A stretch of 64,000 nt of DNA, taken from Naegleria gruberi (Eukaryota). Below the pieces are notes generated by a model, which worked only from the letters and a program-made list of their open reading frames with translations, searched no databases and was not told the DNA's origin. The DNA is taken from NCBI GenBank assembly GCA_000004985.1, contig GG738918.1; one strand, written 5' to 3'. This document shows positions 1 to 33,715 of the stretch, piece after piece. The position numbers and the translations under genes are program-made. Each line of letters opens with the position of its first letter. Position 1 is the stretch's first letter.

Positions 1-943
1 ATTTAATTTTACAATTCCATTTAATTCTTTAATACCATTTCTATATAATGATGGTGTATATACTTTAATTGCATAAAATAATGCAATATCACCCATCTAT
101 TAAAATTAAATAAAATTTACAAATAAAATATATTAAAACAATAATATATTAATTAAAAACATACCAATGTTAAATAAGGAGGTGCAAATATTTCATTTGT
201 ATTAAATTGATTAAATAAATTAATAGAAGTATTCCAATAATCAAGTGATTTAACATTATATGGAATGTATGCATTTGGATTTTGCCAAATAAAGGAATTA
301 CTTGTTTTATTCATTAAATATAAATTATAACCTGGCCAATTATTAACTTGTTGACCATATAATAAATCTATTTTTGAACCAGTACCTCTTTCAATATAAG
401 TATTAATAGATGAATATGGAAATGCTAAATAATATCCAATTGAAGTAGGTTTATAATTTACATATTTGGAATATAAATATTCTTTCATAAATGTTAAATT
501 AGAAAATGGTAATAAATCATTATTATATTCATCTGCTAATGTTTTACCTATTTGTTGATATGGTATTAATTGATTATCAATAAATTGAATTACTTTATAT
601 TTTGCGTCTATTAATAAAAGGTTACAATAGTTTACAATAAAAATATTACAAAAAAATAATAAAACATACTTGATAGTAATTCTCTTGTTAAATAATTAAT
701 AGCATTTGATGAACCAATAAAAGAAGCTAACCAAACCATTGAACAACAAATTAATATTAATAGAACAATTAATATTATAATAACAAGTCTTAATGATAGA
801 AATTTAGATAGAAATGATTTTCTACCATTATTATTTGATAAAAGTGTTTCATTCTCTTCATCAATTTGATTAGTTATAGTTGCATCATTCTCATTTCCAT
901 TATTATTATTATTCGTATTGGATTCATATTTCTTTAGAGTCAT
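1..943 (-). CDS. Transmembrane receptor, N-terminal part: N-rich cytosolic head, one TM helix, Cache/CHASE-like extracellular sensor domain. The 3' end of the gene lies outside the window.
   Basis: ATG at 943 is preceded by an A-run. Three exons join in frame through GTATGT...TAG introns: 670..943, 165..607, 1..96 (introns 608..669 = 62 nt, 97..164 = 68 nt). TM helix 'LVIIILIVLLILICCSMVWLA'. The ectodomain '...IFAPPYLTL|MGDIALFYAIKVYTPSLYRNGIKELNGIVKLN' resembles the core of Cache-type sensor domains and the ectodomain of the cyclase at 47206..49741. Confidence 0.6.
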
Positions 944-1669
944 TTTTTTTAATTATGAAAAAGATATTAAATGATTGCTTAAATTTCTAAATGTTCATTG
1001 AAATGTTGTAGTGGACACAATGAATGAACATCAATGTCTGTCATCTCTCTTGATTGTTTTACAATGTTGTTGTTGTAGTTTCTAACTATTACTATCAACA
1101 TCAATCAATTTATTCATTATTAATATCTCAAACTCTAAATGATAATGATATTTGAAATTTGTGTTCTAGAACTCTCCTTCTAAATATAGCAATAATAAGC
1201 TCTGCTTTATCTCTAATAATTCCCATTGCTATACAATAGCCAAACTAGCTCCATATCTGTATCCTTTGAAGAAATAATATCATTAATACTACTGTTAGAT
1301 TAATGGAAGAGAAATTGTAAATTTTCATTTATTATTTCTTACTGAAAACAGAGTGAATAGTTGCAGTGGTACTAGTAAGTTTGTGATGGTATTGTTGTGT
1401 TTGAAACTAAATCCATTCTCTGATTCCTTATTTCTCACAGAGAAGAGAGGAGAAATAATTGAAACACCTACACACATATCTTTTCTACACAATCATCAGG
1501 CCCTAGGAACCTATAAGGAGAAAGAAACAGTGTTAAAACTCATTATAATAGTTCTGGATATTAATAAATCTTGCTAAAGAATAATGCCGATTATTCTCTA
1601 AACTAATAAAATCATTTTGATTCAATATTCTGATAGTCAAGGAAATTACATCTAATAAATTTGGTTAAT

Positions 1670-2443
1670 TTACAAATAATTCTTTTCATTGATAATTTCT
1701 TCTATTAAGGCTAGTGTATTCTCTGTATTTAATTTTAATATTTGTAAATCTGATAAATTTAATTTTCTAATTTCATCTCTAGTGAGTGAAATTCTACTCA
1801 CCAACGTTGAATGTTGTAATTTTTCCAATTCTGATATTTTAGCCTTTAAAAGAACATTTTCTCTTTCCTTTTGTGATTCAAAATATGAAACTTCATCCAA
1901 ATCATGAATTAACAATTCAAGTGAATGTTTAATTTCTAATACTTTAGATCCTTTTAAATTACTTGTTATGTTATTAAGGTTAGTAGTATTATTAGTAGTA
2001 GGAGTATTGGCTGTTCTCTCTGGTATATGTAATGAATTTGTTGCTGCATTTTCCATATTGGCAAAACTTTTAGTTTTACGATCCCAAAATTTAATATTTA
2101 CATTTGATGATGTGGCTGAATTATTATTCGGAGAGGTTGATGATGAACCTAGGTGAGCACTATTACTTAATTGAGGTAATTTTGAATCAACATCTTGATT
2201 CAATATATTAGTTTTTGAGGTTTTTTCTCTTCTTTTTAAAGATGAAGATTTAATAGTATTATTATTTTCATCGTCATCATCAGAGTCATCACGTTGATTA
2301 AGGAAATCTTCAAATGTTCTTGGAATGTCCTCACCCACGAAACGTGTTGATTTACCCATACTTGATTTGCATTGTCTAATACTACTGTTGCTGGTACTCA
2401 CAGCTGATTTGGTTGGTGAGGAAGAAGAGGAGGGTATTAACAT
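1670..2443 (-). CDS. Hypothetical protein, S/N/T-rich with a C-terminal coiled-coil or heptad region
   Basis: 257-codon ORF. ATG at 2443 is preceded by an A-run. Low-complexity N-terminal two thirds, then 'LEIKHSLELLIHDLDEVSYFESQKERENVLLKAKISELEKLQ'. No family recognised. Confidence 0.55.
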   Translation of the reverse strand: MLIPSSSSSPTKSAVSTSNSSIRQCKSSMGKSTRFVGEDIPRTFEDFLNQRDDSDDDDENNNTIKSSSLKRREKTSKTNILNQDVDSKLPQLSNSAHLGSSSTSPNNNSATSSNVNIKFWDRKTKSFANMENAATNSLHIPERTANTPTTNNTTNLNNITSNLKGSKVLEIKHSLELLIHDLDEVSYFESQKERENVLLKAKISELEKLQHSTLVSRISLTRDEIRKLNLSDLQILKLNTENTLALIEEIINEKNYL

Positions 2444-2912
2444 TTTTTTTTAAAAGGTGTATAACAATTGCTTGATAAGGGAGTGAATATATTAGGAATT
2501 TCTTGAAGAGTTTAGTCCAATAGCAAAATGATTATTTCTATACAATCATACAACTGAAGTAAGGAAGAACTGAGTTCATTAAAATAATCAAATAGTTGAT
2601 CTGAATATTTCAAAACAATATTGTGAACCATTCAGAAGAGGATGAAGGAATAATTTCCATTGAAAAGCATTCATTTCATAGAGAATTTACGTAAATAAAT
2701 ACAATGTTCATGAGTGAGTCTATTTATTTGAAATGTAATTACACCCTCACGATTGAGTCACATTTGGTTTTTTATGTTCTTCCAATAACTGAACCTGTTG
2801 TTTTTTTAGAGTGTTACCCTATCAGTGTGACATCTCCCAAGGTAATCCTCATTGTTATCTTCTTCCACTTGAAAAAACTCCAATAATATTCCGAAATTAC
2901 AATCAAAAAAAA

Positions 2913-3503
2913 ATGAAACAACAAATTAATAATGTCAATTTGTTATTGATGATCATTGGTTGTTTATTGATTATGATAATGATTGCTGAACATGTCTCTT
3001 CTCAAAGAGTTATTCTCTCCATGACTTCCATCTCTCAAACACCATATCTTTACACTGGTTATTTCACACCTGATGTCAGAAATCAACATTGGAATTGGGT
3101 TGGATCTAATCTTCAAGGAATTACCAATCCATTTTATGGTGAATTATCAATTCCAATTCAAGGATTTGATCCAATCATTTATAGAGGTCATCTTTCTGCT
3201 AATACTAATTTTGTTTCTAATACTTTTCCTTTTGCATTGATGAGTGTTGCAATTACACCAAATTCTTTTAATGGAACATTCTCTATTGAAGGATCAATTC
3301 AATGTGGTGATAATGTTACTGGAGGAGGTGCACTTAGTGGTTTAAGATTTAAAGGAATTACTATAGATGGAAAAAGTGAAAATCATTCTGGAAATTGTTT
3401 TAATTATCAATGTCATTGTGCACAATGTCGTGATTCTGTTACTGTTGCCATGTCTGTTTGTTATCAATCTATTACTCCAAAACCATCATTTTTAGGAAAA
3501 TAA
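2913..3503 (+). CDS. Small secreted Cys-containing protein (signal peptide), unknown family
   Basis: The track ORF starts at a GTG (2811). The first ATG, at 2913, follows 'caatcaaaaaaaaATG' and gives 'MKQQINNVNLLLMIIGCLLIMIMIAEHVSSQ', a typical signal peptide. The C-terminus is Cys-rich ('CFNYQCHCAQCRDSVTVAMSVC'). Confidence 0.6.
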   Translation: MKQQINNVNLLLMIIGCLLIMIMIAEHVSSQRVILSMTSISQTPYLYTGYFTPDVRNQHWNWVGSNLQGITNPFYGELSIPIQGFDPIIYRGHLSANTNFVSNTFPFALMSVAITPNSFNGTFSIEGSIQCGDNVTGGGALSGLRFKGITIDGKSENHSGNCFNYQCHCAQCRDSVTVAMSVCYQSITPKPSFLGK

Positions 3504-3513
3504 ATTGTTTATT

Positions 3514-6500
3514 TTATCTATCAAAGCTTTTAATTTCCATATTTACTTTTTTATCCAAATTGGTAATTGCTTCTGATATAATTGTTTTTACTAAAAATGG
3601 TTCAAAATATCTACGCATTGTGTTACTATTATTTTTGAATATTACTGAAAAATTATTAATGATATTCTTGGCTTGATCCATTAGATTATTTGTTTTCAAA
3701 TATTGTGCTAAATGTGTACCAATTAAACTTTCCTTTTTAGGTGGTTGTAATGCCGTAATAGATGAAAAAATCAAAGCTCTATCAATCATTTCATCATCGA
3801 GTGAAAACCCACATCGTGAAGAATATCCATTCTGATCTATATAAATATTACTCTTATTTTCTTTAACTTCTAATATACATCTAATAAAATTATCATATAA
3901 AATACTATTTAGTAAATTATTCTTAAATTGTTGAGATTTTAAAAGAGTAAATTCTTGAATGGATGATATTGAAATTTCATTCAATGATTTTGGAATAGTT
4001 ATAAAACCACTTTCTATTCCAATTGGATAATATTTAATTTTACATGAATCATCTTCCATATTTGGAAAATTGTTATCAGTTGTATCATTAAATAATTTTG
4101 AAATTTCCATAAAATTATTAAATAATAATGAATTATGAACAGTTCTTTGATTTTTGTAGGTGAAAAAACGCATTATTATTTCCTCTCCATTACAAAGTTT
4201 AATTTCCAAATTTATAAAATTCACATTTCTACTAATTTGGTGAATTCCTTGTTTAATTTCTTTCATTGTAAATGGCATGAATATTTGATTTTCAATATTC
4301 AAATAATTTTGTTTCATATCATAAAAATAATCCAAAAATAAACATTGATTTCTAATAATTTCAATTTCATTCATATTCATCATTTTCACAAATTTCATTA
4401 ACACTAATTTACAAATAAGGTAATGAGATTCTGATTTGAGTAACCAAAATAATTGATTTCCAAATACTTTAGATTTTATACATCTAGTGATAAGATATTC
4501 TGATAACAATCCATTTTCATTCTCATATTTAATACATTGAATGAGAAACGGTAAAATATAAGAAAATATTTCGTCCTTAGTTTCGTCTAAATATTTGAGT
4601 AGTGTTAATTTTGAAAATATGCCAATTTTAGAAGAGAATAACGTGAATAGTTCCATCACATTATTTGGTTTCTTCCATTTTTCCATGATTTGATTAGCTC
4701 TAAATAGTACCATTGGAGTTTCGAATGAAATTCCAAGCAGAAATGGAACAAAATGTGAAGAATCATTTACATTCCACTTGTTATTTTCTAAAATAGTCTC
4801 CAATTTCAAATCATTTTCATCTTCAATTAAATTTGGTTTTCTATCTAAATAATACTTTACAATACAATCATGAGTAGGAAATTCAATTTCAAGAGAAAGT
4901 TCTGAATTTTTTGTATTTTGTAAAAGTTTAACATTTCCTTGAATTAATTCCAAATTTGAATCAAACACTGAACATTCAAAATAGTTGGGTTTCATAATCT
5001 CAATTCTTTTAAGAATTCCAGTCTCTAAATCTTCTCTATAACAAACAAGTGAAAATTTGATAGAATAGTCACATGAAAATTGTGAAATTTGAGTTTCGAA
5101 TATAATTTCTTCATTCCATTCGAGTGGTATTTCTATATTTTGGAGAGGAATGATTTTAGTGTCGTGAATTTCATTTTTCTTTTCATTTGAAATTATTGAA
5201 CATTCAATTGAAAAGGAAGTGAAATTTCCATATTCGAATAACAAATCCCTAAATGAAAGTCCATGAACTTGTTTTATCACAACACTCATTCTCTTATTAA
5301 AATCAAATGATGATGATGATACAATATTATTATCTATCAATTTTTCATTATTCATTTCAAATTTCTTTTCAAAAATTGAATCAAGAAATGAAATATTACT
5401 TTCAGTCAATTCTCTTTCATTTTCTAAAAGACAATTACAATTCACATAACTAATTTGATTATTATTGACAAGTCCACATAAAATATTTCTATCATTTCTT
5501 GATAATGTCTTGTTATATTTCATGTTTAAATATTTCAATTTAGGAAATGAACTTATAATTGGAATTACATTTCCATTTAGGTAATTATTAGATAGATCTA
5601 ATTTTGTCAAGTTATTACAATTGAATTTTGTAAATAATTGAATAAAATCTTTAGAATAAACTGAACAATCTGGAATTTCCAAATTAGTTAAACTTTCACA
5701 ATCACAAATATTCTCAATTAATTTGAATGAATTGGAAGTTTGAGATCTTAATTTTAAACTTTTCAATTTGAATGGTTTAAATTCTGTGTTGGGGTTTCTA
5801 AATTTCCAAATAGTATCACCTGAAATGGAAAGTTTTACCAAATTAGTCAATTCACATTTTAACAATTCTGAAAAGTTTTCTGTATTTCCATTTATAATAT
5901 TCAATTCTTCCAAATTATTAGAAATTCTTGAAATTTCTTTGAAATTTACAGTACTGTCTATTAGAGAAAGTGATTTCACTGTCAATGGAATTACATTACT
6001 ATTTATAGTAACTCCAACTAATTTCAGTTTTCTCAAATTAGTATAATCCAAATGATATAATTCTATTGTTGAATTGTTTTTACAGCAAATTACTAATGAA
6101 TAAATTTGATGTTTGATAGATTGACCAATTACTTCAACTGCTGAATTAAATTTTACATCAATTGCCAAATTGACCAAATTAGGTAATGTCATTCTACTAT
6201 TCATCTATTCACTATATATTTTATCATCAATACTAAACAGTGATGAAATATCCAAAGATTTCAACTTGTAAAAATATGTAATAATAATATTTAATCCATA
6301 ATAATCCAATCCACTATTTTCTTTCAATGTTAAACTTTTTAAATTTTCATAAAATTTAAAATTTTTCATAATTTCCAAATCAGCATTTGAAAATGAACCT
6401 GTTAAACTTGAAATCCTATAAAACAATCTATTATTTTGAATAGCAGTTATAAAATTATTGATTGGATCACAATGATGATCTTTACGTGATGAAAATCTTG

Positions 6501-6681
6501 AAAATAATTTGTGTTTCTTTTTAATTTCAATTTCAAGTTTGGAAAAAGTTGATGCGAATTTCCACTTCTTACAAGTGTGAGAAATTATTTGGAGAATGAA
6601 TTTGGAGTGGAGAAAGGAAAAGATTTCAACCAACATTTCTGTTGGCAGGTTATTAATAATGAGAGAAGATGTTAGTGACAT
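3514..6681 (-). CDS. F-box / leucine-rich-repeat protein fused to a Vps34-like (class III PI3K) C2-helical-kinase module with degenerate catalytic motifs. The two abutting ORFs are separated by one in-frame TAG.
   Basis: ORF 6205..6681 has an F-box ('LPTEMLVEIFSFLHSKFILQIISHTCKKWKF') plus LRRs. ORF 3514..6204 has further LRRs ('LTKLDLSNNYLNGNVIPIISSFPKLKYLNMKYN'), a C2-like stretch ('IPLEWNEEIIFETQISQFSCDYSIKFSLV'), a PI3K helical-domain signature ('ILPFLIQCIKYENENGLLSEYLITRCIKSKVFGNQLFWLLKSE') and a kinase-like core lacking DRH/DFG ('CILEVKENKSNIYIDQNGYSSRCGFS'). Both ORFs are in the same frame, interrupted only by TAG at 6205..6207. Confidence 0.7.
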
Positions 6682-7098
6682 TTTCTTTAATATTAAAACG
6701 TGATTTCATATCAATTTCAATTCCAATCATTTACCTAATAAAAATGATCAAATGGGTTTATATTACTCAAGTTAAGGTAATGAATGGCTACGAAGCCATT
6801 TATTTTCTGCGGACATAGATAATGATTACTGAGTTGTTGTCATCATTGGTACCAAATACATTGATGAAGATTTGAATGAATTGAACCTCCGGAGATTGGT
6901 TAAAGCCCTAAAGGTTATTGAATGATAATTTGATTAAAGTTAAATTATGCAATCAAGACTTTTAGTACTTGAGAAATTGATACACTCCAAAAAACTCTTG
7001 GTAGTCACCTTCTTTATTATATATTAGCTATTGGAATTGATTCGCAGTAGAGCTTCTTTTTGAAGTAGATTTATATTTCAGAAATTATGGTTGTTGAT

Positions 7099-7216
7099 GG
7101 CTACGGCCATATCACGATGAATGCACCTCATCCCGTCCGATTTGAGAAGTTAAGTATCGTCGAGCCACATCAGTACTGAGGTTGGAGACAACTTGGGAAC
7201 CTGTGGTGCTGTAGTC
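7099..7216 (+). rRNA. 5S_rRNA: 5S ribosomal RNA gene (118 nt)
   Basis: 'GGCTACGGCCATATCACGATGAATGCACCTCATCCCGTCCGATTTGAGAAGTTAAGTATCGTCGAGCCACATCAGTACTGAGGTTGGAGACAACTTGGGAACCTGTGGTGCTGTAGTC' matches the eukaryotic 5S consensus blocks (CTACGGCCATA, GAAGnTAAG, AGTACT, TGGGAA, GTGCTGTAG). The 5' GGCTACGGC pairs with the 3' GCTGTAGTC (helix I, two G-U pairs). It is followed by a T5 Pol III terminator. Confidence 0.95.
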
Positions 7217-7221
7217 TTTTT
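7217..7221 (+). terminator. Pol III terminator T-run of the 5S gene
   Basis: TTTTT lies directly after the 3' helix-I strand of the 5S rRNA. Confidence 0.8.
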
Positions 7222-7244
7222 GATTTCATCCCTTGTTAATCAAA
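7221..7244. repeat. Left core arm of an inverted repeat flanking the di-ubiquitin gene
   Basis: 'tgatttcatcccttgttaatcaaa' is the reverse complement of 8111..8135 except for one C indel. Weaker similarity extends outward (7030..7098 versus 8158..8234). Confidence 0.85.
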
Positions 7245-7481
7245 CCATTAAAACAACTTTTTTCAAAATCAATGAAGTTGCATTCATGGAGTAACATAGT
7301 TGCTCAATTATTACAAAATATGAACCAAATTTGTGTCCAGAAACAAAAATCAGGCCATGCAAGAATTTCTTTGCCGTCAAGAACTACTCTCTAAAAATAC
7401 ATACATCTTAAAACAGGTTAAAAAGAAAAGAATGTTTTGAATATAAGAAAAACAACAAGAAAAAACAAAACAACAATTATA

Positions 7482-7940
7482 ATGCAATTATTTGTCAAGA
7501 CACTCACTGGAAGAACTATCACTTTGGAAGTTGAATCTAATGATTCAATTGAAAATGTGAAAAGAAAGGTACAAGATAAGGAAGGAATTTCACCAGATCA
7601 ACAAAGACTCATCTTTGCTGGTAAACAATTGGAAGATGGCAGAACTATTAATGATTACAACATTCAAAAAGATTCAACACTTCATTTGGTATTGAGATTA
7701 AGAGGAGGAATGCAACTCTTCGTAAAAACCTTAACTGGAAAGACCATTACTATCGAAATGGAATCAAACGACACTGTTGAGAATATGAAACAAAAGATAT
7801 TTGATAAGGAAGGTATTCCTTCAGATCAACAACGTTTGATTTATGCCGGTAAACAATTAGAAGATGGCAGAACTATTAATGATTACAATCTTCAAAAGGA
7901 TTCAACTGTGCATTTAGTATTGAGATTGAGAGGAGGTTAA
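7482..7940 (+). CDS. Di-ubiquitin: two head-to-tail ubiquitin-like repeats, both markedly divergent from canonical ubiquitin
   Basis: The track ORF starts at a TTG (7437); the real ATG is at 7482. There are two 76-aa units, each ending in LRLRGG, with the stop directly after the second GG. Repeat 1 differs from canonical ubiquitin at 11 of 76 positions (including K11R) and repeat 2 at 16 of 76. Confidence 0.9.
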
Positions 7941-8110
7941 ACAACATAGTATCGTAGATTCTCTCAATTATTGTAAATAAATTATACTTTGAATAGTGAA
8001 ATATTGATGTCGTATGGATAAATTGATCACGAGGTTTGCTTGTTAATGAAACTTATTTTAATTACAACTGCAGAAGGAATTTTGAAGCTAGAAATTGATT
8101 GATTTTGGTT

Positions 8111-8135
8111 TTTGATTAACAAGGGGATGAAATCA
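8111..8135. repeat. Right core arm of the inverted repeat flanking the di-ubiquitin gene
   Basis: 'tttgattaacaaggggatgaaatca' is the reverse complement of 7221..7244 plus one extra G. Confidence 0.85.
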
Positions 8136-8469
8136 AACGTACGCAAGATGAATTCGTATCATAATTGAAATCTGCATAAATCTACATCAAGAATGAAGGA
8201 CAAATCTCAGCCAAAACATCCGATCCATTCCAATTTATTAAGCAAAAACTCCATCAACAATTGTTGAGCTCAATCAACAAGTGTCAGTAGACAATAACCA
8301 TAAAGTGGATATTTACAAATGTACTTGATTTGGCGGTCTTATTTCATTGACGGACCATTTTAAAAACAGCGTCGAACCTTTATGCATAACGTTTCAACTC
8401 AGAATATTGGCTTCATCAATAAGAAGCGCAACAATAGCGTATAATAGTCGACAATAATTATCAAACAAA

Positions 8470-10869
8470 ATGAGTCAACAAGAAACATCATCTGATATGA
8501 TTGATAATAATAATCAAACGACTGGTGGTGGAGATGAAGCAATGATTGAATCTCCAGTACTCACCTCTGAAATTAATGTTCAACAACCAACACAACAAGA
8601 AGAATCACAACAACAACAACAACAAACAAGCCTTGTTGCCGAAGATGAAGCACAAAACAATACCTCATCTTCATCTTCATCGAATACAACAAATGAAGAG
8701 AATGTTCCTTCCTCTAATAACCATACAAATACTGATAACAATGTTCAAAATGTTCAATCAACAAGTGTAAATACAAAGAAGGAACAAGAAATTGATACTA
8801 CAAAACCAAAAGGAGAATATATCATCGGAGGAGCTGATGATGATGAAGAAGAAGTTTATGTTCCTAAATATCAGAGTGATTCTCCACCTTTACAACTTGA
8901 ATGGAAAGATCTTAGTTACAAAGTTAAACAACCAATTGATGCTCCTGCTCATTTGAGTGTTCCTCAAAAGATTGGATTTAAACTGAAGAATATGTTCAAA
9001 AAGAAGGAAAAGGTTATTTTGCACGAAATGTCTGGATTTGTAAGTCCTGGAAGTACTCTTGCTATTATGGTATGTTTTTAATAGTTGAACTTTGTAATTG
9101 AAATATTGTGACAATATGAATCATAATTTTCATATGATGAATATGATCATTGTGATATAATAGGGTCCTAGTGGTGCTGGTAAAACATCTCTCTGTAAGT
9201 ATTATCATGATTTCAATCCATTCTAAACATCATATGTATTTAAGTGAATATTCTTGCTCAACGTGTTAAGGAAACATCTGGTGATATCACTGTAAATGGT
9301 GTCAAGATTAGTAGTAGTTTCCGTTCTTTGTCTGCATTCGTTCAACAAGATGACGTTCTTATGGGTAATTTGAGTGTTAGAGAAACATTACGTTATGCAG
9401 CTCTTTTACGTTTACCAAAGACAATTTCATGGAAGGAAAAGATGGAACGTGTTGAATCAATTATGGATGAATTGGGTCTCTTAAAGAGTGCTAATACTAA
9501 AGTTGGTACACCTGGTTTAACTAAGGGTATTTCAGGAGGTGAAAGAAAACGTTTGAGTATTGCCATTGAATTATTGACACAACCAAGTATTTTATTCTTG
9601 GATGAACCTACAAGTGGTTTGGATGCTGCTACAGCTTACAGTGTCATGAAAACAATTATCAAAATTTCAAAGGGTGGTAGAGCTGTCATTTTAACTATCC
9701 ATCAACCTCGTTCCAATATTTATGAACTTTTTGATAAGTTACTTCTTTTAGCTCGTGGTAAGATTGCTTATTTCGGTCCAGCTAAAGATGCCACTACATA
9801 TTTCGGAAATGTTGGTTATCCATGTCCAAAACAATATAACCCAGCTGATCACTTTATTGATCTAATTACTGAATCTACTAGTGACACTGGTGAAGGTAAA
9901 AAATTGAAACAAGAAGATAATGAACGTATTGAAAAGATTCTTACAAATTATAATCACACTGAAGTTGCTCCATCAGTTGATCACTTGAAGACTGATATTA
10001 AGAAAGCCAAGTATAATGCCAATTGGTTTACTCAATTCTTCGTTGTGATGGCAAGAGCATTTGTTAATATTTTACGTGACAAGATTTTAACATTTTCAAG
10101 ATTATTCCAGAATTTAGCGATGGCTATTCTAGTCGGTTTGATCTTTTTACAAATTGGTTATGATCAGCAATCTGTTCAAGATAGAAATGGTGTTCTCTTC
10201 TTTTGTTTAGTTAACCAATCTATGAATTCCATTTTTGGTTCATTAACAGTTTTCCTTTTAGAAGAAAAGAAAGTATTTTTAAGAGAACGAGGTTCTAAAA
10301 TGTACAAAGTGAGTGCCTATTATCTTGGTAGAAGTATCAGTGAATTGCCAAATATTATCTTCTTCCCAATCCTATTTGGTACAATTGTTTATTGGATGTG
10401 TAATTTGAATCCAGGTGCAGATCGATTCTTTGTTTTCCTTTTAATTTTAGTTTCAATGGCTTTAGCTGCTCAAGCTCTTGGTATGGTGTTAGCTGTATGT
10501 GCACCTTCAATGGAATTTGCAACTGCTATTGCACCTGTATTGTTAACAGTTTTGATGTTGTTTGGTGGTTTGTACATGAATGTTGATAATATTCCACCAT
10601 ACTTTATTTGGATTTATTGGTTATCTATTTTCCACTTTGGTTATGAAGCATTGGTATTGAATGAATTTGGTGGTGCTACTTTTGAATGTCCACCATCTCC
10701 ATCTGCATGTACCTATAGAACTGGTGAAGATGTTATTAGTAGAAATGCTATGAATAAGCCATACTCAAACATTTGGTTCAATCTTGGTTTATTGTGGGCC
10801 TTCTTTTTAGTTTATCGTTTTATGGCCTACCTCATTCTCGTATTTGTTGTCAAACCAAAGAAAGGATAA
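8470..10869 (+). CDS. ABC transporter, G subfamily (White/ABCG-type half transporter, NBD-TMD order) with a Q/N/S-rich N-terminal extension
   Basis: Three exons 8470..9069, 9164..9194 and 9245..10869 (introns GTATGT..TAG 94 nt and GTAAGT..AAG 50 nt). Splicing restores the Walker A motif 'GPSGAGKTSLLNILAQR'. ABC signature 'ISGGERKRLSIA', Walker B 'ILFLDEPTSGLD', H-loop 'TIHQPR'. The C-terminal half is multi-TM and ABC2-type. Confidence 0.9.
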
Positions 10870-11036
10870 ATCTTTCAACTCTATGTGTAAATAAAAAACC
10901 TTTTATCAAATTTTTCAATCTTATACTTTCCTTTTTAATTCTACCAATCTTAATATTAGATTCTAGTGGACTCTCACAACTCTTGCAACTGTTGAACTGG
11001 TGAACTTTTTGAATAATAATTATACAATAGAAAAAA

Positions 11037-12248
11037 ATGAGAAAACGATCGAGTAGTGGGGGCGGAAGTTCTTCTCCTCAAAGTTTTACTTTCTGTGGTG
11101 GTGGTGATATTGAGAGCAGTTGTAAAACACCATCAATTTTAAAACCACTTGAAATTAAAACAAAGATAAAATCATCATTATCATATAATTATTCACCATC
11201 ACCTACTAGTGATGAATTAAGTAAAGATATGATAAATATTAAACAATTTTCACCCGATGATATTATAATAATAGATAAAATTGCATCAGGTGGATTTGCA
11301 GAAGTTTTTAAAATTCAAATTCATTCAACTATTTATGCAGGAAAGAGAATGTTAAAAAGTAGATCACAAATACAAAGAAATGTTGATAAATTTGCTAATG
11401 AATTAGTCAAGATGAATAGGATTTTTCAATTAGGATGTTCAAGAGTATTAAAACTTGTTGGTTATTGTTTTGATAAGGAAAATCAAAATTATTGGATTGT
11501 AACTGAATTTATCAATGTTGGAGATTTATATTCAATTATTCATTGTAAAGAACAAACTTTAAAGAGTCATCATTATGGATTAGAACGTATTAGAAATGAA
11601 TATTCAAAATTAATTGAATTAATTCATAATGATATGAATGTTAAAATTAAATTAGCTCTAGATATTGCTAAATGTATTGATGAACTACATTCATTAACAC
11701 GTTATGCTCATCTAGATGTGAAATCATTGAATATTCTTGTAGATGAAAATTTACAAATAAGAGTTGGAGATTGGTGTGATGCTAAACTAGTAGATGAATC
11801 AAGAGAACATTATCTCACTCCATTTCAACCACATGGTACAATATATTGGATGGCTCCTGAAATTGTTAAACAAAATGTATTTTGTCAAAAATCAGATATT
11901 TATGCTTTATCAATAGTTTTTACTGAATTATTAATTTTAGGTAAACCTTATCCTGGATTAAATGTTTTAGATGTTAAGGAAAAATTAGAGAGACCTATCA
12001 TTTCTAATCCAGCCAATAATAATAATACTGATAATACTAATTCTGATAATCAAATCAATAATACTGATAATATACCATATCGTATGAATATTATTGAAAT
12101 ATTGGAACAAAAGGGTTGTGATATAACTAATCAATGTAGAAATTTCATATCACTCATTGAAGATATGTGGAAAGAGGATGTTTCAGAAAGACTCTCTTCT
12201 AAACAAGTTGTAGAAAGATTATCTAATTTATTAGAAAGTGATGAATGA
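11037..12248 (+). CDS. Protein kinase (TKL-like Ser/Thr/Tyr kinase fold) with non-canonical motifs
   Basis: 403-codon ORF with 'gaaaaaaATG'. Kinase subdomains: 'ASGGFAEVF' (degenerate Gly loop), 'YAGK' (VAIK Lys), 'HLDVKSLNILV' (HRD replaced by HLD), 'VGDWCDA' (DFG replaced by DWC), 'YWMAPE'. Confidence 0.8.
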   Translation: MRKRSSSGGGSSSPQSFTFCGGGDIESSCKTPSILKPLEIKTKIKSSLSYNYSPSPTSDELSKDMINIKQFSPDDIIIIDKIASGGFAEVFKIQIHSTIYAGKRMLKSRSQIQRNVDKFANELVKMNRIFQLGCSRVLKLVGYCFDKENQNYWIVTEFINVGDLYSIIHCKEQTLKSHHYGLERIRNEYSKLIELIHNDMNVKIKLALDIAKCIDELHSLTRYAHLDVKSLNILVDENLQIRVGDWCDAKLVDESREHYLTPFQPHGTIYWMAPEIVKQNVFCQKSDIYALSIVFTELLILGKPYPGLNVLDVKEKLERPIISNPANNNNTDNTNSDNQINNTDNIPYRMNIIEILEQKGCDITNQCRNFISLIEDMWKEDVSERLSSKQVVERLSNLLESDE

Positions 12249-13814: not shown

Positions 13815-16246
13815 TTAGTTGTTGCGTTGCTTCTTTTCTAAAACAACCCAATCCCATTCATAATCCAAAGAATATTTTTCTCTAATAAATAAATTTAAGA
13901 AAAGGTTTCTAATATAGGTATAGTCTGGTTCTTGGCAAAATTTCAGAGCTCTAGTATAATTTAAATAAGTGGCAAATTCAACAGGGAAACCTCTACAAAG
14001 ATTTACAATCTTGATATTCTTTTTCTTTTGATAAATATTGTTATAGTGGTCTTCCTTTGTGTTACCTGTCAAACCTTGCCAAGGAAGAGTTCCTTTCAAG
14101 AAATACAATAAAACATAACCAAGAGACTCAAGATCATCTCTTCTCGATTGTTCGTATCCTTTGTGATTATTTAAACTTGCATAACGAGCAGTACCTGTCA
14201 AATGTTTGTCTTTTCTTAAAGTAATATGACCCTTGTCTGTCATGTACATTTTTGATAACCCAAAATCAATGAGATATACTATATTTTCACTACCTGGGGA
14301 AGGCAAAGAAGCATTGGTTTGATAAGGAGCATTAAGAAGGTTTAACAACCCTGTAGGGCTATTACCAGGAACCTTTCTTCCCATCAAAAAGTTATCTGGT
14401 TTAATGTCACGGTGCACGAAATTTCTTTTGTGTGTATATTCAATTCTCTGGATCATTTGATCAGCTAACATAAGAACTGTCTTTAAGCTGAATTTACGAC
14501 TACATTTTTTGAATAAGCTTTCCAAGCTTTGACCAAGTAGTTCAAGAACCATAATATTGTATACTCCCTCAGTTCCGAACCAAAACACACGAGGTATACC
14601 ATGACAAATACTCATTATCTGATTATTGGATGAATTGGTTGTGCTATTACTACTAGTAGTACTATTTGGTTGTGCATTCATAAGGTATGAAATTACTTTT
14701 GCTTCATAAATTAATTGTTGTTTTCCACTATTAGCTTGGCCATTTTGTGGAGTTGGTAGTGTTTCTAATTTGACTGCATAATATTCTTCTCGTTGTTCTA
14801 TATTTTGGCACAAGAATACTTCACCAAATGCACCATTACCAAGCTTGCTCATCAATCTATACTTACTACCAACAATCAAACCTACTGGATAATTACTGTT
14901 AGATGAAGAAGGTTGTTGTGTCGTTTGAGTTACTGGTTGTTGTGGTGGATTGTTAGTAGGTTGAACTTGTGTTACTGGTTGTTGTGGAGGAGGCATTTGG
15001 GTTTGATTATTTGGCATTGAAGAAGGATAAGCAGTATTCTGATAAGCATGTGCTTGATTTCCATTATATGCAGGTGAATAACTTCTAGTGTTAATGTTAT
15101 TTTGATATGATCTTTGTACTATTTGTTCATCTGCAACAACTATTGGACAATTAATTGTAGATCCTGGTTGTTGTGGAGGCAATAAAGAATTGCTATTTAC
15201 TCGAGATAGAGAAGTTCCTTTTCCACTGCTAGAAACATAATTTGGAATATTTGAGTAATAGTAATTATTTTGATTAACATTATTTGGATAATTATACATC
15301 AAATTTTGTTGGTGTTGAGAACTTCCTGTTGATGTTGGAATTTGATTACTTAAACTACTCGATGGTCTTTGATATTGATTTGATGAATTTACGGCTAATT
15401 GATTATTTGTTCCTGTATATAAAAGATCATAATAACTATTGGTATTATAACCTCTTTGAGTTTGTTTTGATGTTGGAGTGATGGCTTGTTGACTATCTGT
15501 TTGTCTAAATGTTGTTAATAAAGAATCAACATATGCTGAACCTGAGCCTTCTGGTGGTTGGTGTTGAGGTTGTTGAGTAATGTATGGAGTTGAATCTACA
15601 TGTTGTTGTTGTGGATTGGTTGGACTACGGCTCGTATTTGCATGATAATTTGTTGTATTATAATATGAAGGTGAAGTATAAGAAGGATTTCCTGGAGTAC
15701 CTGTAGTTGTAGTTCCAACCATTCTACGTTGATTATTAATTGAAGAAGAAGTTGGTGTAGTTGGCGTGTTGTAATTTACAGAGGGAAGATAGTTACTACC
15801 TTGTTGAAACATGATTGATGATAAACTATTATTATTGTGCATTACTGGCGAATAAGAAGACATTGAAGGCATGTTAAGAGAATTTGATGGGTTAATTGTA
15901 GAGTATGGAAGAGTATAATGTTGTTGTTTGTTTGATGTCGTCTGGTTATTATAATACTAAATAATATTCATATTATGAACAATTAATTTCTTTTTCAATA
16001 ACTAATAATACATACATTTGTGTTTGGATTTGAATAGGGATAATAGAGCAAATTAGAACGGTCTGTTGGTTGAGGTGTTATTTCTCTCAAATTATTACCA
16101 GCCTCTTCTATTTTGTTTAATACCTTTCCATCATTATGCATGAGGCCTGTAGGTGTTGAATCAATTCCTACTACTCTGGAAGGTGCTGTTTTGTTGGTGA
16201 GAGGTGTTTTATCATCCTTCGCAGGCGTTGAATAAAGATAACTCAT
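13815..16246 (-). CDS. Casein kinase 1 family protein kinase with a roughly 400-aa Q/N/P/S/T-rich N-terminal extension
   Basis: Two exons 16016..16246 and 13815..15956 join in frame through a 59-nt GTATGT...TTTAG intron (15957..16015). CK1 hallmarks: 'LGNGAFGEVF', 'YAVKLE', 'HRDIKPDNFLMG', 'LIDFGLSK', 'LTGTARYASLNNHKGYEQSRRDDLESLGYVLLYFLKGTLPWQGL'. Confidence 0.9.
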
Positions 16247-17054: not shown

Positions 17055-19949
17055 TTATTGCTTCTTTGCTCTTTGTTCGAATACTTTGCTGAGTTCATTT
17101 GTGCTTGAGACAGCTTTGACTGGTTTAAAGAGACCTGACTTCTTTTTCTTTTGTTGTTGAATAATTTGTTCTGATGAGGATAAAGCTTGTTTAAGCTTTT
17201 CAATTTCATCAACTAAAACTTGTTTCTTTTGCTTTTGTTTTTCCTTTTCTTCTTGGGTTGCACTCTTTTGAGCTCTCAAAGTATCCAATTCATTTTGAAG
17301 CTCAATAATTCTGTTATTTTGGAGTTCAATTTTCTTATTGGCTGATTGAAGTTTGGATCTTTCACTTTGAATTTGTTGTCTTGAGTGATTTGCTTCTGTT
17401 TGAAGTTTCTCCTTCTCATCTTGAATCTTTTCCAATCTGTTTCTCAATTCGAACAAATCATTTGCCCAGTTTCTTCCCAACTTTTGCTGCTGTTGGTTGG
17501 TTGGAGTGCTTGGTTTGGCGGAGCCTTTCTCCATCTCCATTTGCAATTCCGCTAATTCTTGCTTAAGATTTTCTTTTTGGAGTGTTAATTGCTTCAAGTC
17601 CTTCTCCTTTGATTTGATTTGCTCCTCGTATTCTTCTTTGATTTTTTCATAGGATTCGGTCTTGTCCTCCATTAATTCCTCTAATGCTTTCACATCTTTC
17701 TTTAATTGTTTGATTTCATCTTTGATTTTATCGGTATCTTCCTCAACATCTTGAAGTTCTCCTTCAAGCTCTTCAGTTTTATCCTTCTCAGCATCGAGAT
17801 CATCTTCGGCTCTATCAAGTTTCTTATTAAGATCTTTCTCAATAGTTGCAGAATTTTTCTTTTCTTCTTTAAGCTCTGCCTTTAATTTTTCTATTAACTT
17901 ATCCTTCTTACTTTCAACTGATGCAGCCGAGTCTTTCACCTTTTTCACTTTTGTAGTGTATTCGTCAATTATGAAATCTTCCAAATCTTCATCAATTTCT
18001 GTACTTCCCTTTTTGGTCAACTCTGCCTTCTTAACTTGAGTTTTCAACATGACAATTTCTTCCTCTAGACTAAGATTTTCTTTTTCCAACTTCTTTAATT
18101 TATCTTTCAATTCATCAACTGAGTCTTCAGCAGCATCTAATTGCCCAAGATACTCATTAAGTTCAGTTTCTATATCTACACATTCGTCTTCAAGATTGAA
18201 TACTTCTTTTTCAAGCTTCTTTACCTTCTGAGAAAGTTTCTTGTTTTCTTTTTCTAATCTTGAAATTTCTCTCTTATTAAATTCCTCTACACTTCCTAAT
18301 TCAGCTTCAACGCTTGCGGTTTTTCTTTTCTCATCTTCGTGTTTGCATTCTAAATCAAAAATTCTTTCATTGAGTTGAGTGTTCAACTTTCTGTACATCT
18401 TATTACTCTCTGTCAAACTTTCAATGGATGAAATGGTTTTGGCTCTAGCCTCACTGTCAGAGATATTTTGAGCCATTTCAATCAGCTGGATTGCATTATG
18501 TTTGGCATCTTCCTTTGCATTTTCTAATTCCTTCATCAAATCTAATCTCTTCTTTTCTTCATCAAGGATTTGATCTTTGAGTGCTTTGACTTCCAAAGAG
18601 AGTTCATCAACTTTAAACTTGCATTCATTTCTAATATCTTCTTTTTGTTTTTCTGACGATTCAATTTTTTCATTTACAATGTCAAGCTCATCTTCAAGTT
18701 TTTCATTTGTTTCTTTCAGCTTTTTGATAGAACTCTTAAGGGTAGTATTTTCATTTGTAAGTTCCTTGATGGTTTGTTTGTAAGAAGATGTTTCTTCCTT
18801 ATATTTACATTCCAATTCATCCAACTTGTGAGCCAATTCGGCTTTTGAAAGAGAGTTATCGCCATCTTTGCTTGATTTGAGTATTGCTATTTGTTCCTCA
18901 AGTTTTTTAATGATTTGCATTAATTCTGTTGGGCTTTTGTAAGTGTTTTGTTTTGCTACACACTTGATGTTCTTCATTTTCAATCCGAACTTCAGACTTG
19001 AAACAGATTCTTCTCCACACAAAGGAGTTGGTGAAAGATTACAAATAAGGGTAGCCTTAGAGTTTCCCCCAAGAGTTTCTTTCAAAATTTTTGTTAGCTT
19101 CGAATCTTCAAATGGTATATCAGACTTCTTATCGAGGATGGAATCAACACAAACTCCTAGATTTGATAAAGACAATACAAGATTCTTTTGTTCGTCCTCC
19201 ACTGTTCTCTTTTCACTTCCTGCCATATCAACGAATAACAATTGACCTACAGTCGAAGAACTATCCTTGCTAAGACTTTCAACTCTAATGATGAAGATAG
19301 AATGTGATTGAGCAGGATCTTGATTTGTTCTTGTTGACAGTGAGAGCCTATTATTGTTTCCTATTTTGATTATATCAAGCATTTCATCTTCGGTTGTGAC
19401 ATATTCTTCTGTTAATCTATCAACGTAAACTCCTCTCTTTGGGGAATCAATTATAGTTAAATCTCTCTTTTCCTTATCAAATAAATCATTGATTTTTTCA
19501 TTATAAATTTCGAGGAAGGAACAACCAATCTTATATTCAATATTCTCATCTCCACTTCTAATAATTTCAAACATTTCCTTTGCAGTTCTTGGAATTAATC
19601 CAAATAATTCTTCCTTGTCAAGTGATCCAGTCATTGTATATGTTTTTCCTGCTCCTGTCTGTCCGTATGCCATCATTGTTACATTAAAGCCTTTAATAAC
19701 ATCTTTTACAAGTGGTTTACACACGTCTTCATATAATTCCTCCTGTTTTGTATCGTTCTTAAACACTTTATCAACAATGAAGGAATTATTTCCAATGGCT
19801 TGATTATCAGTTGATACCTTAAAAGTATGGTCTCCTTCAAAATCGTATGTTAATTTGTATGAAGTTTTCTCTTGTTTTTCCTTAGTTGTTATTGGTCTAA
19901 AACGAGCAACAACTCTAACGTTTTGCACTTGCCTCAAATTCGCAGACAT
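17055..19949 (-). CDS. Kinesin-like protein with an N-terminal motor domain and a roughly 600-aa coiled-coil stalk
   Basis: The track start at 19988 is a TTG; the first ATG, at 19949, gives 'MSANLRQVQNVRVVARFRP'. P-loop 'GQTGAGKTYTM', switch II 'VDMAGSEK', 'IPFEDSKLTKILKETLGGNSKATLICNLSP'. Switch I is atypical ('DPAQSHSIF' instead of SSRSH). The remainder is E/K-rich heptad repeats. Confidence 0.9.
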   Translation of the reverse strand: MSANLRQVQNVRVVARFRPITTKEKQEKTSYKLTYDFEGDHTFKVSTDNQAIGNNSFIVDKVFKNDTKQEELYEDVCKPLVKDVIKGFNVTMMAYGQTGAGKTYTMTGSLDKEELFGLIPRTAKEMFEIIRSGDENIEYKIGCSFLEIYNEKINDLFDKEKRDLTIIDSPKRGVYVDRLTEEYVTTEDEMLDIIKIGNNNRLSLSTRTNQDPAQSHSIFIIRVESLSKDSSSTVGQLLFVDMAGSEKRTVEDEQKNLVLSLSNLGVCVDSILDKKSDIPFEDSKLTKILKETLGGNSKATLICNLSPTPLCGEESVSSLKFGLKMKNIKCVAKQNTYKSPTELMQIIKKLEEQIAILKSSKDGDNSLSKAELAHKLDELECKYKEETSSYKQTIKELTNENTTLKSSIKKLKETNEKLEDELDIVNEKIESSEKQKEDIRNECKFKVDELSLEVKALKDQILDEEKKRLDLMKELENAKEDAKHNAIQLIEMAQNISDSEARAKTISSIESLTESNKMYRKLNTQLNERIFDLECKHEDEKRKTASVEAELGSVEEFNKREISRLEKENKKLSQKVKKLEKEVFNLEDECVDIETELNEYLGQLDAAEDSVDELKDKLKKLEKENLSLEEEIVMLKTQVKKAELTKKGSTEIDEDLEDFIIDEYTTKVKKVKDSAASVESKKDKLIEKLKAELKEEKKNSATIEKDLNKKLDRAEDDLDAEKDKTEELEGELQDVEEDTDKIKDEIKQLKKDVKALEELMEDKTESYEKIKEEYEEQIKSKEKDLKQLTLQKENLKQELAELQMEMEKGSAKPSTPTNQQQQKLGRNWANDLFELRNRLEKIQDEKEKLQTEANHSRQQIQSERSKLQSANKKIELQNNRIIELQNELDTLRAQKSATQEEKEKQKQKKQVLVDEIEKLKQALSSSEQIIQQQKKKKSGLFKPVKAVSSTNELSKVFEQRAKKQ

Positions 19950-20299
19950 CCTTCCGATTAGCCTTTGATACAGTACTAAAATCCTCAATGCAACAAAATC
20001 CTCAGTAAATTTTTCGAATGATTTTTTTTAAAGGTGCTGCCCTCAATTGCCGCTGCTTTTGGATACCAACTTCCGATTCTGAAAAGTTGTATTCAAAGGT
20101 CCAAACTCTAGCATTAGTTTCTCAATCAGAATCATCAAGAATTGAAAAAGTTTGGATAATTCAATACGTTGAGAGGAGTGCTCTGAACATTAGTCACCTT
20201 AGTACGGAACTTGGAAATCAGTCTGTGATATTAAAGAAAACATGAAGAATGAACTTGGAAACAACTTGAAAAAATTAGCTACATCTACATCAATTATCT

Positions 20300-33503: not shown

Positions 33504-33715
33504 TGTTGTTTGTTTTTCAAAAATTTATTCTCAAAAGATTCAAATTGTTTCTACAGTAGAATCGGAAATTGATTGGATTTTAAAAACAATCAATTTCTTC
33601 AATGTGTTTGAATTAAAACAATTTTTTTTAAAATTTAAAATTTTACAAATTAATTTAATAAATACAGAGTGTGGTGTGATTGTTGTACAGCAAAGAAATA
33701 TAATGGTGTGTTAAA

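What the first reader, a model, noticed from the sequence alone, without database searches (positions are those of the whole stretch)
7030..8234. Inverted-repeat-bounded unit (~1.2 kb) carrying a di-ubiquitin gene, with the 5S rRNA gene embedded in one arm
Seen in sequence: 'tgatttcatcccttgttaatcaaa' (7221..7244, starting at the last T of the 5S terminator) recurs as a reverse complement at 8111..8135 with a single 1-nt indel. A 24/25-nt match is far beyond chance in 64 kb. By eye the similarity continues outward in degenerate form. The reverse complement of 7061..7088 aligns with 8161..8188 (shared 'cataatt', 'tctg', 'taaatctac'). The reverse complement of 7030..7044 ('cgaatcaattccaat') aligns with 8221..8234 ('cgatccattccaat'). 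In the left arm the two blocks are separated by the 118-nt 5S gene. In the right arm they are separated by only ~25 nt ('aacgtacgcaagatgaattcgtat'), whose ends weakly resemble the two 5S termini. So either the 5S gene inserted into one arm or it was deleted from the other. The repeat encloses the promoter, CDS and 3' region of the divergent di-ubiquitin gene. Inference: this may be a foldback or palindromic duplication, or the remnant of a mobile or recombinogenic 5S-associated cassette. I could not identify a target-site duplication.
Basis: seen in the sequence. Interest (0 to 1): 0.6.

Follow-up and report, generated by a model that had tools for sequence, protein, structure and literature searches.

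The report
Decayed inverted copy of 5S flanks
The inverted repeat is real, but it is most likely the eroded remains of a second, oppositely oriented copy of the 5S rRNA gene unit that has lost its 5S gene, in an amoeba genus whose 5S genes are scattered through the genome and often sit in loose pairs; there is no sign of a mobile element.

Summary
The window comes from a Naegleria-like amoeba; its ABCG neighbour is 91% identical in protein to the N. fowleri protein. The core inverted repeat is confirmed and is slightly longer than reported: 7219..7244 matches the reverse complement of 8111..8137 at 26 of 27 positions. It has only these two copies in 64 kb, where none is expected by chance.

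Similarity also extends to a block just upstream of the 5S gene. Positions 7053..7089, which hold the TATA-like box at -29, match 8160..8198 inverted (local p = 0.008 or lower). The outermost block (7030..7044 vs 8221..8234) and the claimed likeness of the 22-nt right-arm spacer to the 5S ends are not above chance.

Positions 6750..6799, in direct orientation, carry the TATA block at the same 29-nt spacing plus the first 14 nt of the 5S gene.

I found no convincing target-site duplication and no transposase. The motif has no further copy in the window or in about 112 kb fetched from N. fowleri, N. lovaniensis and Willaertia. In N. gruberi, 279 putative 5S genes lie dispersed, with a four-fold excess of neighbours 1-3 kb apart.

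Best reading: local duplications of a 5S unit that later decayed, with a selected di-ubiquitin gene lying between two of them. This is ordinary birth-and-death evolution of a 5S family, so interest is low.

The parts
6750..6799 (+). Relic A: a partial direct copy of the 5S unit. It holds the TATA-like TTTATATT (6757..6764) and, 29 nt from its start, GGCTACGAAGCCAT, which matches the first 14 nt of the 5S gene with a 2-nt insertion. A T-rich run at 6800..6806 follows. There is no 5S body.
   Evidence: the repeat finder D3. blastn E 0.008 in the whole window. Local alignment score 21 against 10.7 +/- 1.8 for shuffles (p < 0.001), p = 0.003 against random window segments. No 5S covariance-model hit even at E <= 10.
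7053..7089 (+). Upstream (promoter) block of the intact 5S unit B. It includes the TATA-like TTTATATT at 7070..7077, which starts at -29 relative to the 5S start.
   Evidence: Sequence. Alignment to the reverse complement of 8160..8198. A TATA box upstream of N. gruberi 5S genes is reported in PMC3369914.
7099..7217 (+). 5S rRNA gene, the only one in the 64-kb window. Its T5 terminator run is at 7217..7221.
   Evidence: Rfam RF00001, 102.1 bits, full length 1-120.
7219..7244 (+). Core repeat, left copy: TTTGATTTCATCCCTTGTTAATCAAA. It starts within the Pol III T-run.
   Evidence: The possible 7-bp hairpin is weak (-3.9 kcal/mol, z = -1.1).
7245..7281 (+). Degenerate downstream continuation of the left arm.
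   Evidence: Alignment. Significant only when taken together with the core.
7482..7940 (+). Di-ubiquitin CDS: 2 x 76 aa, ending in GG followed by the stop codon. It lies between the two convergent 5S-unit copies.
   Evidence: Pfam PF00240 x2, E 4e-60. About 82% identity to canonical polyubiquitins. dN/dS between its two repeats is 0.096 with dS 1.35.
8065..8110 (-). Degenerate downstream continuation of the right arm (relic C).
   Evidence: Alignment.
8111..8137 (-). Core repeat, right copy, inverted and with one extra C.
8138..8159 (-). A 22-nt spacer occupying the position where unit B has 129 nt (9 nt, the 5S gene, 1 nt). It has no detectable 5S remnant.
   Evidence: for lengths. (5S vs this region, p about 0.7). 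(no covariance-model hit).
8160..8198 (-). Upstream (promoter) block copy of relic C. Its TATA-like box is disrupted by a 4-nt insertion (TTTAT-GCAG-ATTTC).
   Evidence: (I3).

Best explanation
The locus holds three copies of one short 5S unit, made of a promoter block with a TATA-like box, the 5S gene, the T-run, and a downstream block of about 60 nt. Only the middle copy, B (7053..7281, + strand), is intact. Copy A (6750..6799, direct) keeps the promoter block and the first 14 nt of the gene. Copy C (8065..8198, inverted) keeps the promoter block and the downstream block, but has 22 unrelated nucleotides where the gene should be.

It most likely arose by local DNA-level duplication of the 5S unit, once in inverted orientation. 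Small indels and a roughly 107-nt net deletion that removed the gene from C followed. The di-ubiquitin gene between B and C is an ordinary, selected gene that happens to lie between them.

The repeat itself probably has no function. It is debris from birth-and-death turnover of a dispersed 5S gene family.

Shown: the three collinear similarities, the single functional 5S gene, and the selected ubiquitin gene. Inferred: the direction of events (deletion rather than insertion), the duplication mechanism, and the absence of function.
For: 1. Collinear similarity of both 5S flanks. The promoter block has 33 matches, 2 mismatches and 3 indels (p = 0.008 by shuffles, < 0.0005 by random segments). 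The core is 26/27. Core plus downstream gives blastn E about 1e-5.
2. Over the gapped alignments the arms have 89 matches and 15 mismatches with many indels. A 26-nt perfect run therefore does not require special constraint on the core.
3. Relic A carries the same TATA block at the same 29-nt spacing, joined to the 5S 5' end. This shows that promoter block and gene were copied together at this locus and that copies lose their gene body.
4. The TATA block sits at -29 of the intact gene, where a Pol III TATA is reported for N. gruberi 5S genes. It therefore belongs to the 5S unit rather than to an independent repeat.
5. In N. gruberi, 279 putative 5S genes lie on 117 scaffolds. Only 1 neighbour gap is below 1 kb, but 22 gaps are <= 3 kb where 5.6 are expected, and 32 are <= 5 kb where 9.3 are expected (Table S1 of PMC3369914). 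Loose local pairs like B and C, about 1 kb apart, are thus a feature of the genus.
6. The locus shows no hallmarks of a mobile element.
Against: - No other 5S locus of this species could be examined. It is therefore untested whether the flank blocks are specific to this locus or shared by the whole 5S family.
- The promoter-block match is not significant without the positional prior (E 0.1-0.4 window-wide), and the regions tested were chosen after seeing the data.
- Relic C holds no detectable 5S sequence, so loss of the gene is inferred, not seen.
- Strand information is missing from the N. gruberi table, so the frequency of convergent pairs is unknown.
- No orthologous locus was recovered. 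N. fowleri shares only the ABCG gene, with no synteny on either side.
Confidence: 0.6

Rival explanations
1. The 26-nt core is an independent cis-acting element, for example a protein-binding site or a weak hairpin acting at transcript ends. On this view it is present twice because it is needed twice, and the remaining arm similarity is chance in AT-rich DNA.
For: The core is far better conserved than its surroundings when gaps are counted. It has internal dyad symmetry, TTTGATT-N12-AATCAAA. The left copy abuts the 5S terminator and the right copy lies 171 nt after the di-ubiquitin stop codon. The promoter-block match fails a window-wide test.
Against: - The hairpin is weak and not better than shuffles on the sense strands (z = -1.1 and -0.5).
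- No third copy exists in 64 kb containing about 27 large ORFs, nor in the two relative loci searched for it, N. fowleri L004 and Willaertia L005.
- The promoter block is significant once anchored next to the core.
- Relic A independently shows duplication of the 5S unit at this locus.
Confidence: 0.15
2. A pre-existing inverted repeat flanked the ubiquitin gene, and a 5S gene later inserted into the left arm between the two blocks.
For: The right arm holds only 22 nt, with no 5S trace, between the two blocks. 5S genes are dispersed in Naegleria, so new insertions must occur somehow.
Against: - The block upstream of the gene carries the TATA-like box at exactly -29, and the core starts inside the T-run. 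An insertion would have had to land by chance in a ready-made promoter and terminator context.
- Relic A shows the same promoter block already joined to the 5S 5' end.
- No target duplication or poly-A flanks the 5S gene.
Confidence: 0.1
3. The 1.2-kb unit is a foldback, MITE-like or other terminal-inverted-repeat transposon that captured a ubiquitin gene and a 5S gene.
For: Inverted arms bracket a compact gene. A 7-nt direct repeat, TTTATTA, occurs at 7013..7019 and 8234..8240.
Against: - That 7-mer is AT-only. By my estimate about 0.4 such matches are expected among the 2200 boundary pairs tried. It lies 11 nt away from the nearest arm similarity.
- The outer arm ends are not significantly alike, and conservation is highest on the inner side.
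- There is no transposase.
- No second copy exists in the window, and the core motif is absent from the two relative loci searched for it, L004 and L005.
Confidence: 0.05
4. The active 5S unit and its gene-less relic are retained as Pol III factor-binding sites, in the manner of TFIIIC-bound barrier elements, to insulate the ubiquitin gene from its neighbours.
For: The two units bracket exactly one Pol II gene, with its promoter and 3' region. The ubiquitin gene is under purifying selection. This rests on analogy with tDNA and 5S barrier activity known in yeast and vertebrates, which is my own knowledge and was not tested here.
Against: The relic lacks the 5S internal control region, where TFIIIA and TFIIIC would bind, and its TATA-like box is disrupted by a 4-nt insertion. 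The arms carry many indels, as expected for neutral decay. No conservation data are available.
Confidence: 0.05

Closest known systems
Dispersed 5S rRNA gene families with truncated or pseudogene copies (birth-and-death evolution). The closest case is the 279 putative 5S genes of Naegleria gruberi (PMC3369914).
   Same: A single 5S gene with an upstream TATA-like box and a T-run terminator, not part of a tandem array and not linked to the rDNA. Partial copies lie nearby. The roughly 1-kb spacing to the neighbouring relic is at the short end of the 1.1-3 kb neighbour gaps that are over-represented in N. gruberi.
   Different: Here two of the three copies have lost the gene body but kept the flanks, and one is inverted. 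Whether N. gruberi pairs are inverted, or share flanks, is not recorded in the published table.
5S rRNA genes located between ubiquitin genes in Tetrahymena pyriformis (Guerreiro et al. 1993, Biochim Biophys Acta). This is recalled from memory and was not retrieved by searches or 50.
   Same: Physical linkage of a 5S gene with a poly-ubiquitin-type gene in a protist.
   Different: In Tetrahymena, clusters of 5S genes sit in the spacers between ubiquitin genes. Here there is one 5S gene and two relics around a single divergent di-ubiquitin gene. No recurrence of the linkage could be checked.
Terminal-inverted-repeat or foldback transposons (MITE-like elements).
   Same: Inverted arms flank a short internal segment.
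   Different: There are no conserved termini, no convincing target-site duplication, no transposase, no other copies, and the arm contains a functional Pol III gene with its own promoter.

Membership tests
5S rRNA gene (Rfam RF00001) | Full-length match to the covariance model above the gathering score | tested here: met
   102.1 bits against a gathering score of 38, model positions 1-120, at 7099..7217 on the + strand.
5S rRNA gene (Rfam RF00001) | Pol III terminator T-run directly after the gene, and an upstream TATA-like box as reported for Naegleria | tested here: met
   TTTTT at 7217..7221 and TTTATATT at 7070..7077, starting at -29. PMC3369914 reports a TATA box and T-runs for N. gruberi 5S genes.
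Decayed paralogue (pseudogene or relic) of a 5S unit | Collinear similarity to both flanks of the functional unit, above chance | tested here: met
   Relic C: promoter block p = 0.008 (shuffles) and < 0.0005 (random segments); core plus downstream p < 0.001.
Decayed paralogue (pseudogene or relic) of a 5S unit | Residual 5S gene sequence inside the copy | tested here: inconclusive
   Relic A keeps the first 14 nt. Relic C has none detectable (p about 0.7; no covariance-model hit at E <= 10).
Terminal-inverted-repeat or foldback transposon | Inverted repeats at the very termini of the element | tested here: not met
   The outermost block 7030..7044 vs 8221..8234 is not above chance (p 0.14-0.34). 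The strongest identity is on the inner side of the arms.
Terminal-inverted-repeat or foldback transposon | Target-site duplication flanking the termini | tested here: not met
   The best candidate is the AT-only 7-mer TTTATTA. By my estimate about 0.4 such matches are expected among the boundaries tried, and it is not adjacent to the arm similarity.
Terminal-inverted-repeat or foldback transposon | Multiple copies in the genome | tested here: inconclusive
   No further copy in the 64-kb window. The core motif is absent from N. fowleri L004 and Willaertia L005.
Terminal-inverted-repeat or foldback transposon | Transposase, or derivation from an autonomous element | tested here: not met
   The only internal ORF of note is the di-ubiquitin gene.
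Polyubiquitin-type gene | Head-to-tail ubiquitin repeats without spacers, each ending in GG | tested here: met
   Two 76-aa repeats matching Pfam PF00240, E 4e-60, each ending RLRGG. The repeats are 79-86% identical to canonical ubiquitin by my own count against the consensus, consistent with about 82% for the database hits.

The most novel reading that the evidence does not exclude
The 26-nt core, alone or with the promoter block, might be a conserved and functional part of every 5S unit in this Naegleria lineage, for example a Pol III termination or re-initiation site or a factor-binding site. Gene-less 'solo' units such as relic C might then be retained as Pol III factor-bound boundary elements around Pol II genes. 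That would make this locus a natural example of a 5S-derived insulator pair bracketing a ubiquitin gene.
Probability: 0.06. Interest if true: 0.5.

Novelty: new member of a known kind. Interest (0 to 1): 0.15.

Why it matters
If the reading is right, the locus is a small snapshot of how a dispersed 5S gene family turns over in Naegleria. Units are copied locally together with their promoter and trailer, in either orientation, and then lose the gene body. This hints that dispersal works at the DNA level rather than through RNA, because the promoter travels with the gene. It does not reveal a new element or mechanism, and nothing here bears on ubiquitin biology. Its practical value is as a caution: short inverted repeats next to Pol III genes in these genomes are likely to be paralogue debris.

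Tried and rejected
1. Exact-protein look-ups gave nothing on record. I tried the di-ubiquitin (both the ATG and TTG starts), two other window ORFs and two N. gruberi proteins.
2. A homologue search with the di-ubiquitin was swamped by canonical polyubiquitins, and no orthologue could be identified.
3. The metagenome scan for the core motif gave three chance hits inside GC-rich bacterial coding sequence, with no 5S gene nearby.
4. 5S-pattern scans of prokaryote genome contigs and viral contigs gave either nothing or unrelated eukaryote-type 5S arrays inside bacterial MAGs, 72-77% identical to this 5S gene.
5. I fetched N. fowleri (L004, L007), N. lovaniensis (L008, L009) and Willaertia magna (L005) loci through ABCG homologues. 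They contain no 5S gene and share no synteny beyond ABCG itself, and L004 and L005 lack the core motif. No comparative test of the locus was therefore possible.
6. The one same-species metagenome contig (L006) covers only 8940..11262.
7. Hairpin hypothesis for the core: the folds are weak and not distinguishable from shuffles.
8. The bacterial-type promoter and terminator scan was uninformative.
9. A weak blastn hit at 33612..33634 is AT-rich low-complexity sequence, not a relic.

Full report
**What the window is.** The sequence is eukaryotic, about 31% G+C, with long and mostly uninterrupted ORFs. The left neighbour of the finding, an 896-aa ORF at 3514..6204 on the - strand, has as its only database relative a Naegleria gruberi protein at 44% identity. 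The right neighbour is an ABCG transporter (8470..9081 plus 9244..10869). It is 91% identical in protein and 81% in DNA to N. fowleri FDP41_008417, and 78% to a Willaertia magna protein. It is 100% identical in protein (97.8% in DNA) to a 2.3-kb contig of an ENA metagenome, ERR1078381. The window is therefore from a Naegleria species near, but not identical to, N. fowleri.

**Checking the observation.** Rfam finds one 5S rRNA gene in the 64 kb, at 7099..7217 on the + strand (102 bits, full length). Its T5 run is at 7217..7221. There are no tRNA genes.

The di-ubiquitin CDS is 7482..7940 on the + strand, with two Pfam ubiquitin domains. The core repeat is real and a little longer than reported:
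- 7219..7244, TTTGATTTCATCCCTTGTTAATCAAA, matches the reverse complement of 8111..8137 with one extra C.
- There are exactly two copies in the window, and none in 100 shuffles.

I tested the extensions locally, with the search space limited to the sequence next to the core:
- The block upstream of the 5S gene, 7053..7089, aligns with the reverse complement of 8160..8198 with 33 matches, 2 mismatches and 3 indels. The score is 19 against 11.9 +/- 2.2 for dinucleotide shuffles (p = 0.008), and none of about 2000 random window segments reach it.
- In an unanchored window-wide blastn, the same block is only E 0.1-0.4, so its weight rests on its collinear position.
- Core plus downstream (7219..7269 vs 8137..8079) gives E about 1e-5. 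The downstream part alone is not significant (p 0.2-0.4).
- The outermost block, 7030..7044 vs 8221..8234, is not above chance (p 0.14-0.34). It may simply reflect short ATTGG-containing strings that recur in these intergenic regions.
- The spacer in the right arm is 22 nt (8138..8159). It shows no likeness to the 5S gene on either strand (p about 0.7), and the covariance model finds nothing there even at E <= 10.

A third partial copy lies 313 nt to the left, in direct orientation. Positions 6750..6799 align with 7063..7110. This copy has the same TTTATATT box (6757..6764), followed 29 nt from the box start by GGCTACGAAGCCAT, which is the first 14 nt of the 5S gene with a 2-nt insertion. A T-rich run follows. 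The local score is 21 against 10.7 +/- 1.8 (p < 0.001 by shuffles, 0.003 by random window segments). In the intact unit the box (7070..7077) also starts 29 nt before the gene.

**Anatomy.** There are three copies of one unit, which consists of a promoter block, the 5S gene, the T-run and a downstream block.
- A (6750..6799, + strand) has the promoter block and the 5' stump of the gene.
- B (7053..7281, + strand) is intact.
- C (8065..8198, - strand) has the promoter block and the downstream block, with 22 nt where B has 129 nt.

B and C are convergent, and the di-ubiquitin gene with its own flanks (about 7282..8064) lies between them. Over the gapped alignments, B and C share 89 matches and 15 mismatches with about 10 indels. 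Divergence is dominated by indels, and a perfect 26-nt run is not surprising at that identity. No special constraint on the core needs to be invoked.

**Insertion or deletion.**
- The upstream block contains the TATA-like box at the position where PMC3369914 reports a TATA box for N. gruberi 5S genes.
- The core begins inside the Pol III T-run.
- Relic A shows the promoter block already joined to the 5S 5' end.

The flanks therefore belong to the 5S unit, and copies at this locus lose the gene body. This favours deletion from C over insertion into B. It remains an inference, because no trace of the gene is left in C.

**Mobile element?** The evidence is against it.
- Arm conservation is highest on the inner side, and the outer ends are not significantly alike.
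- The best flanking direct repeat is the AT-only 7-mer TTTATTA (7013..7019 and 8234..8240). By my estimate about 0.4 such matches are expected among the 2200 boundary pairs tried, and it is not adjacent to the arm similarity.
- The only internal gene is ubiquitin.
- No other copy of any arm segment exists in the window, and the core motif is absent from the two relative loci searched for it, L004 and L005.

**The core as a structured element?** Its ends are self-complementary (TTTGATT/AATCAAA). The predicted hairpins are weak, however: -3.9 to -7.9 kcal/mol, with z-scores of -0.5 to -2.5 depending on strand. The motif class TTGATT-N(6-20)-AATCAA is only mildly enriched (6 found against 1.6 expected), and two of the six are the repeat itself.

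**Context from the genus.** I transcribed Table S1 of PMC3369914 and computed neighbour distances.
- It lists 279 putative N. gruberi 5S genes on 117 scaffolds.
- Only one neighbour gap is below 1 kb, so there are no classical tandem arrays.
- 22 gaps are <= 3 kb where 5.6 are expected under uniform placement, and 32 are <= 5 kb where 9.3 are expected.

In this genus the 5S genes are thus dispersed and show an excess of loose local pairs separated by roughly one gene. That is the arrangement seen here between B and the relic C, about 1 kb apart. The table gives no strands, so the share of inverted pairs is unknown.

**The ubiquitin gene.** Its two repeats are 82% identical in protein (62 of 76) and 78% in DNA. 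Between them dN/dS is 0.096 and dS is 1.35. The gene is therefore old and under purifying selection, and it is not a recent passenger. By my own count against the consensus sequence, the repeats differ from canonical ubiquitin at 11 and 16 of 76 positions, consistent with about 82% identity for the database hits.

**Comparative data.** None could be obtained for the locus itself.
- N. fowleri, N. lovaniensis and Willaertia loci fetched through ABCG homologues carry no 5S gene and share only the ABCG gene with the window.
- The same-species metagenome contig stops at window position 8940.
- Scans of metagenome, prokaryote and viral collections gave only chance or unrelated hits.

**Verdict.** It is best explained as an eroded, inverted paralogue of the 5S unit, one of two relics at this locus, produced by the local duplication and decay typical of a dispersed 5S family. 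I put this at 0.6. The rivals are:
- an independent cis-element (0.15);
- insertion of the 5S gene into an older repeat (0.10);
- a transposon (0.05);
- a retained boundary function (0.05).

The finding is a new instance of a known kind of thing and of low interest. A whole-genome survey of 5S flanks in this species would settle it.

Noticed in passing
window 6750..6806 (+): A third partial copy of the 5S unit, with the TATA-like box at the same 29-nt spacing plus the first 14 nt of the 5S gene, followed by a T-rich run. It lies about 70-120 nt upstream of the ATG (6681) of the divergent F-box gene. It could in principle give a very short Pol III transcript.
   Followed up: yes
window 3514..6681 (-), stop codon at 6205..6207: The F-box ORF (6205..6681) and the 896-aa LRR/PI3Ka-domain ORF (3514..6204) are in the same frame, separated only by one TAG that is followed directly by ATG. 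The N. gruberi homologue P0001 spans both parts as a single protein, and the TAG falls where the N. gruberi protein continues through this segment. Possible explanations are a nonsense mutation or pseudogene, a sequencing error, stop-codon readthrough, or a gene split.
   Followed up: partly
window 8470..10869 (+) vs L004 (N. fowleri VFQX01000061.1): The ABCG gene is 81% identical in DNA and 91% in protein to N. fowleri FDP41_008417, yet none of the genes within about 10 kb on either side is shared. Either the two genes are paralogues or synteny is broken on both sides of the gene. The left break coincides with 5S relic C.
   Followed up: partly
L006 (ENA ERZ929261, run ERR1078381, project PRJEB11402): A 2.3-kb metagenome contig is 97.8% identical to window 8940..11262. 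The same or a very close Naegleria strain is therefore present in that public sample, and its reads could be mined for the 5S/ubiquitin locus.
   Followed up: no
L010 (CAXXGC010000010.1, Melioribacteraceae MAG) 465..5291; also L014, L011, L012, L013: Contigs filed under bacterial MAGs carry 5S genes with the GAAGTTAAG motif, which I recall as typical of eukaryotic 5S genes. L010 has seven copies in a tandem array with a period of about 786 bp. This looks like eukaryotic contamination of the bins. These genes are only 72-77% identical to the window's 5S gene.
   Followed up: partly
window 7482..7940 (+): The di-ubiquitin ends exactly at GG followed by the stop codon, with no extra C-terminal residue. 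Its two repeats differ from canonical ubiquitin at 11 and 16 positions (K11R in repeat 1), yet they are under strong purifying selection (dN/dS 0.096). It may be a specialised ubiquitin variant rather than a standard polyubiquitin.
   Followed up: partly
L005 (Willaertia magna JBEGDK010000111.1) 15006..15273 and 19601..20394: Two small clusters of tRNA genes, five in all and all on the - strand, lie downstream of the Willaertia ABCG homologue. The 64-kb Naegleria window has no tRNA gene at all.
   Followed up: no
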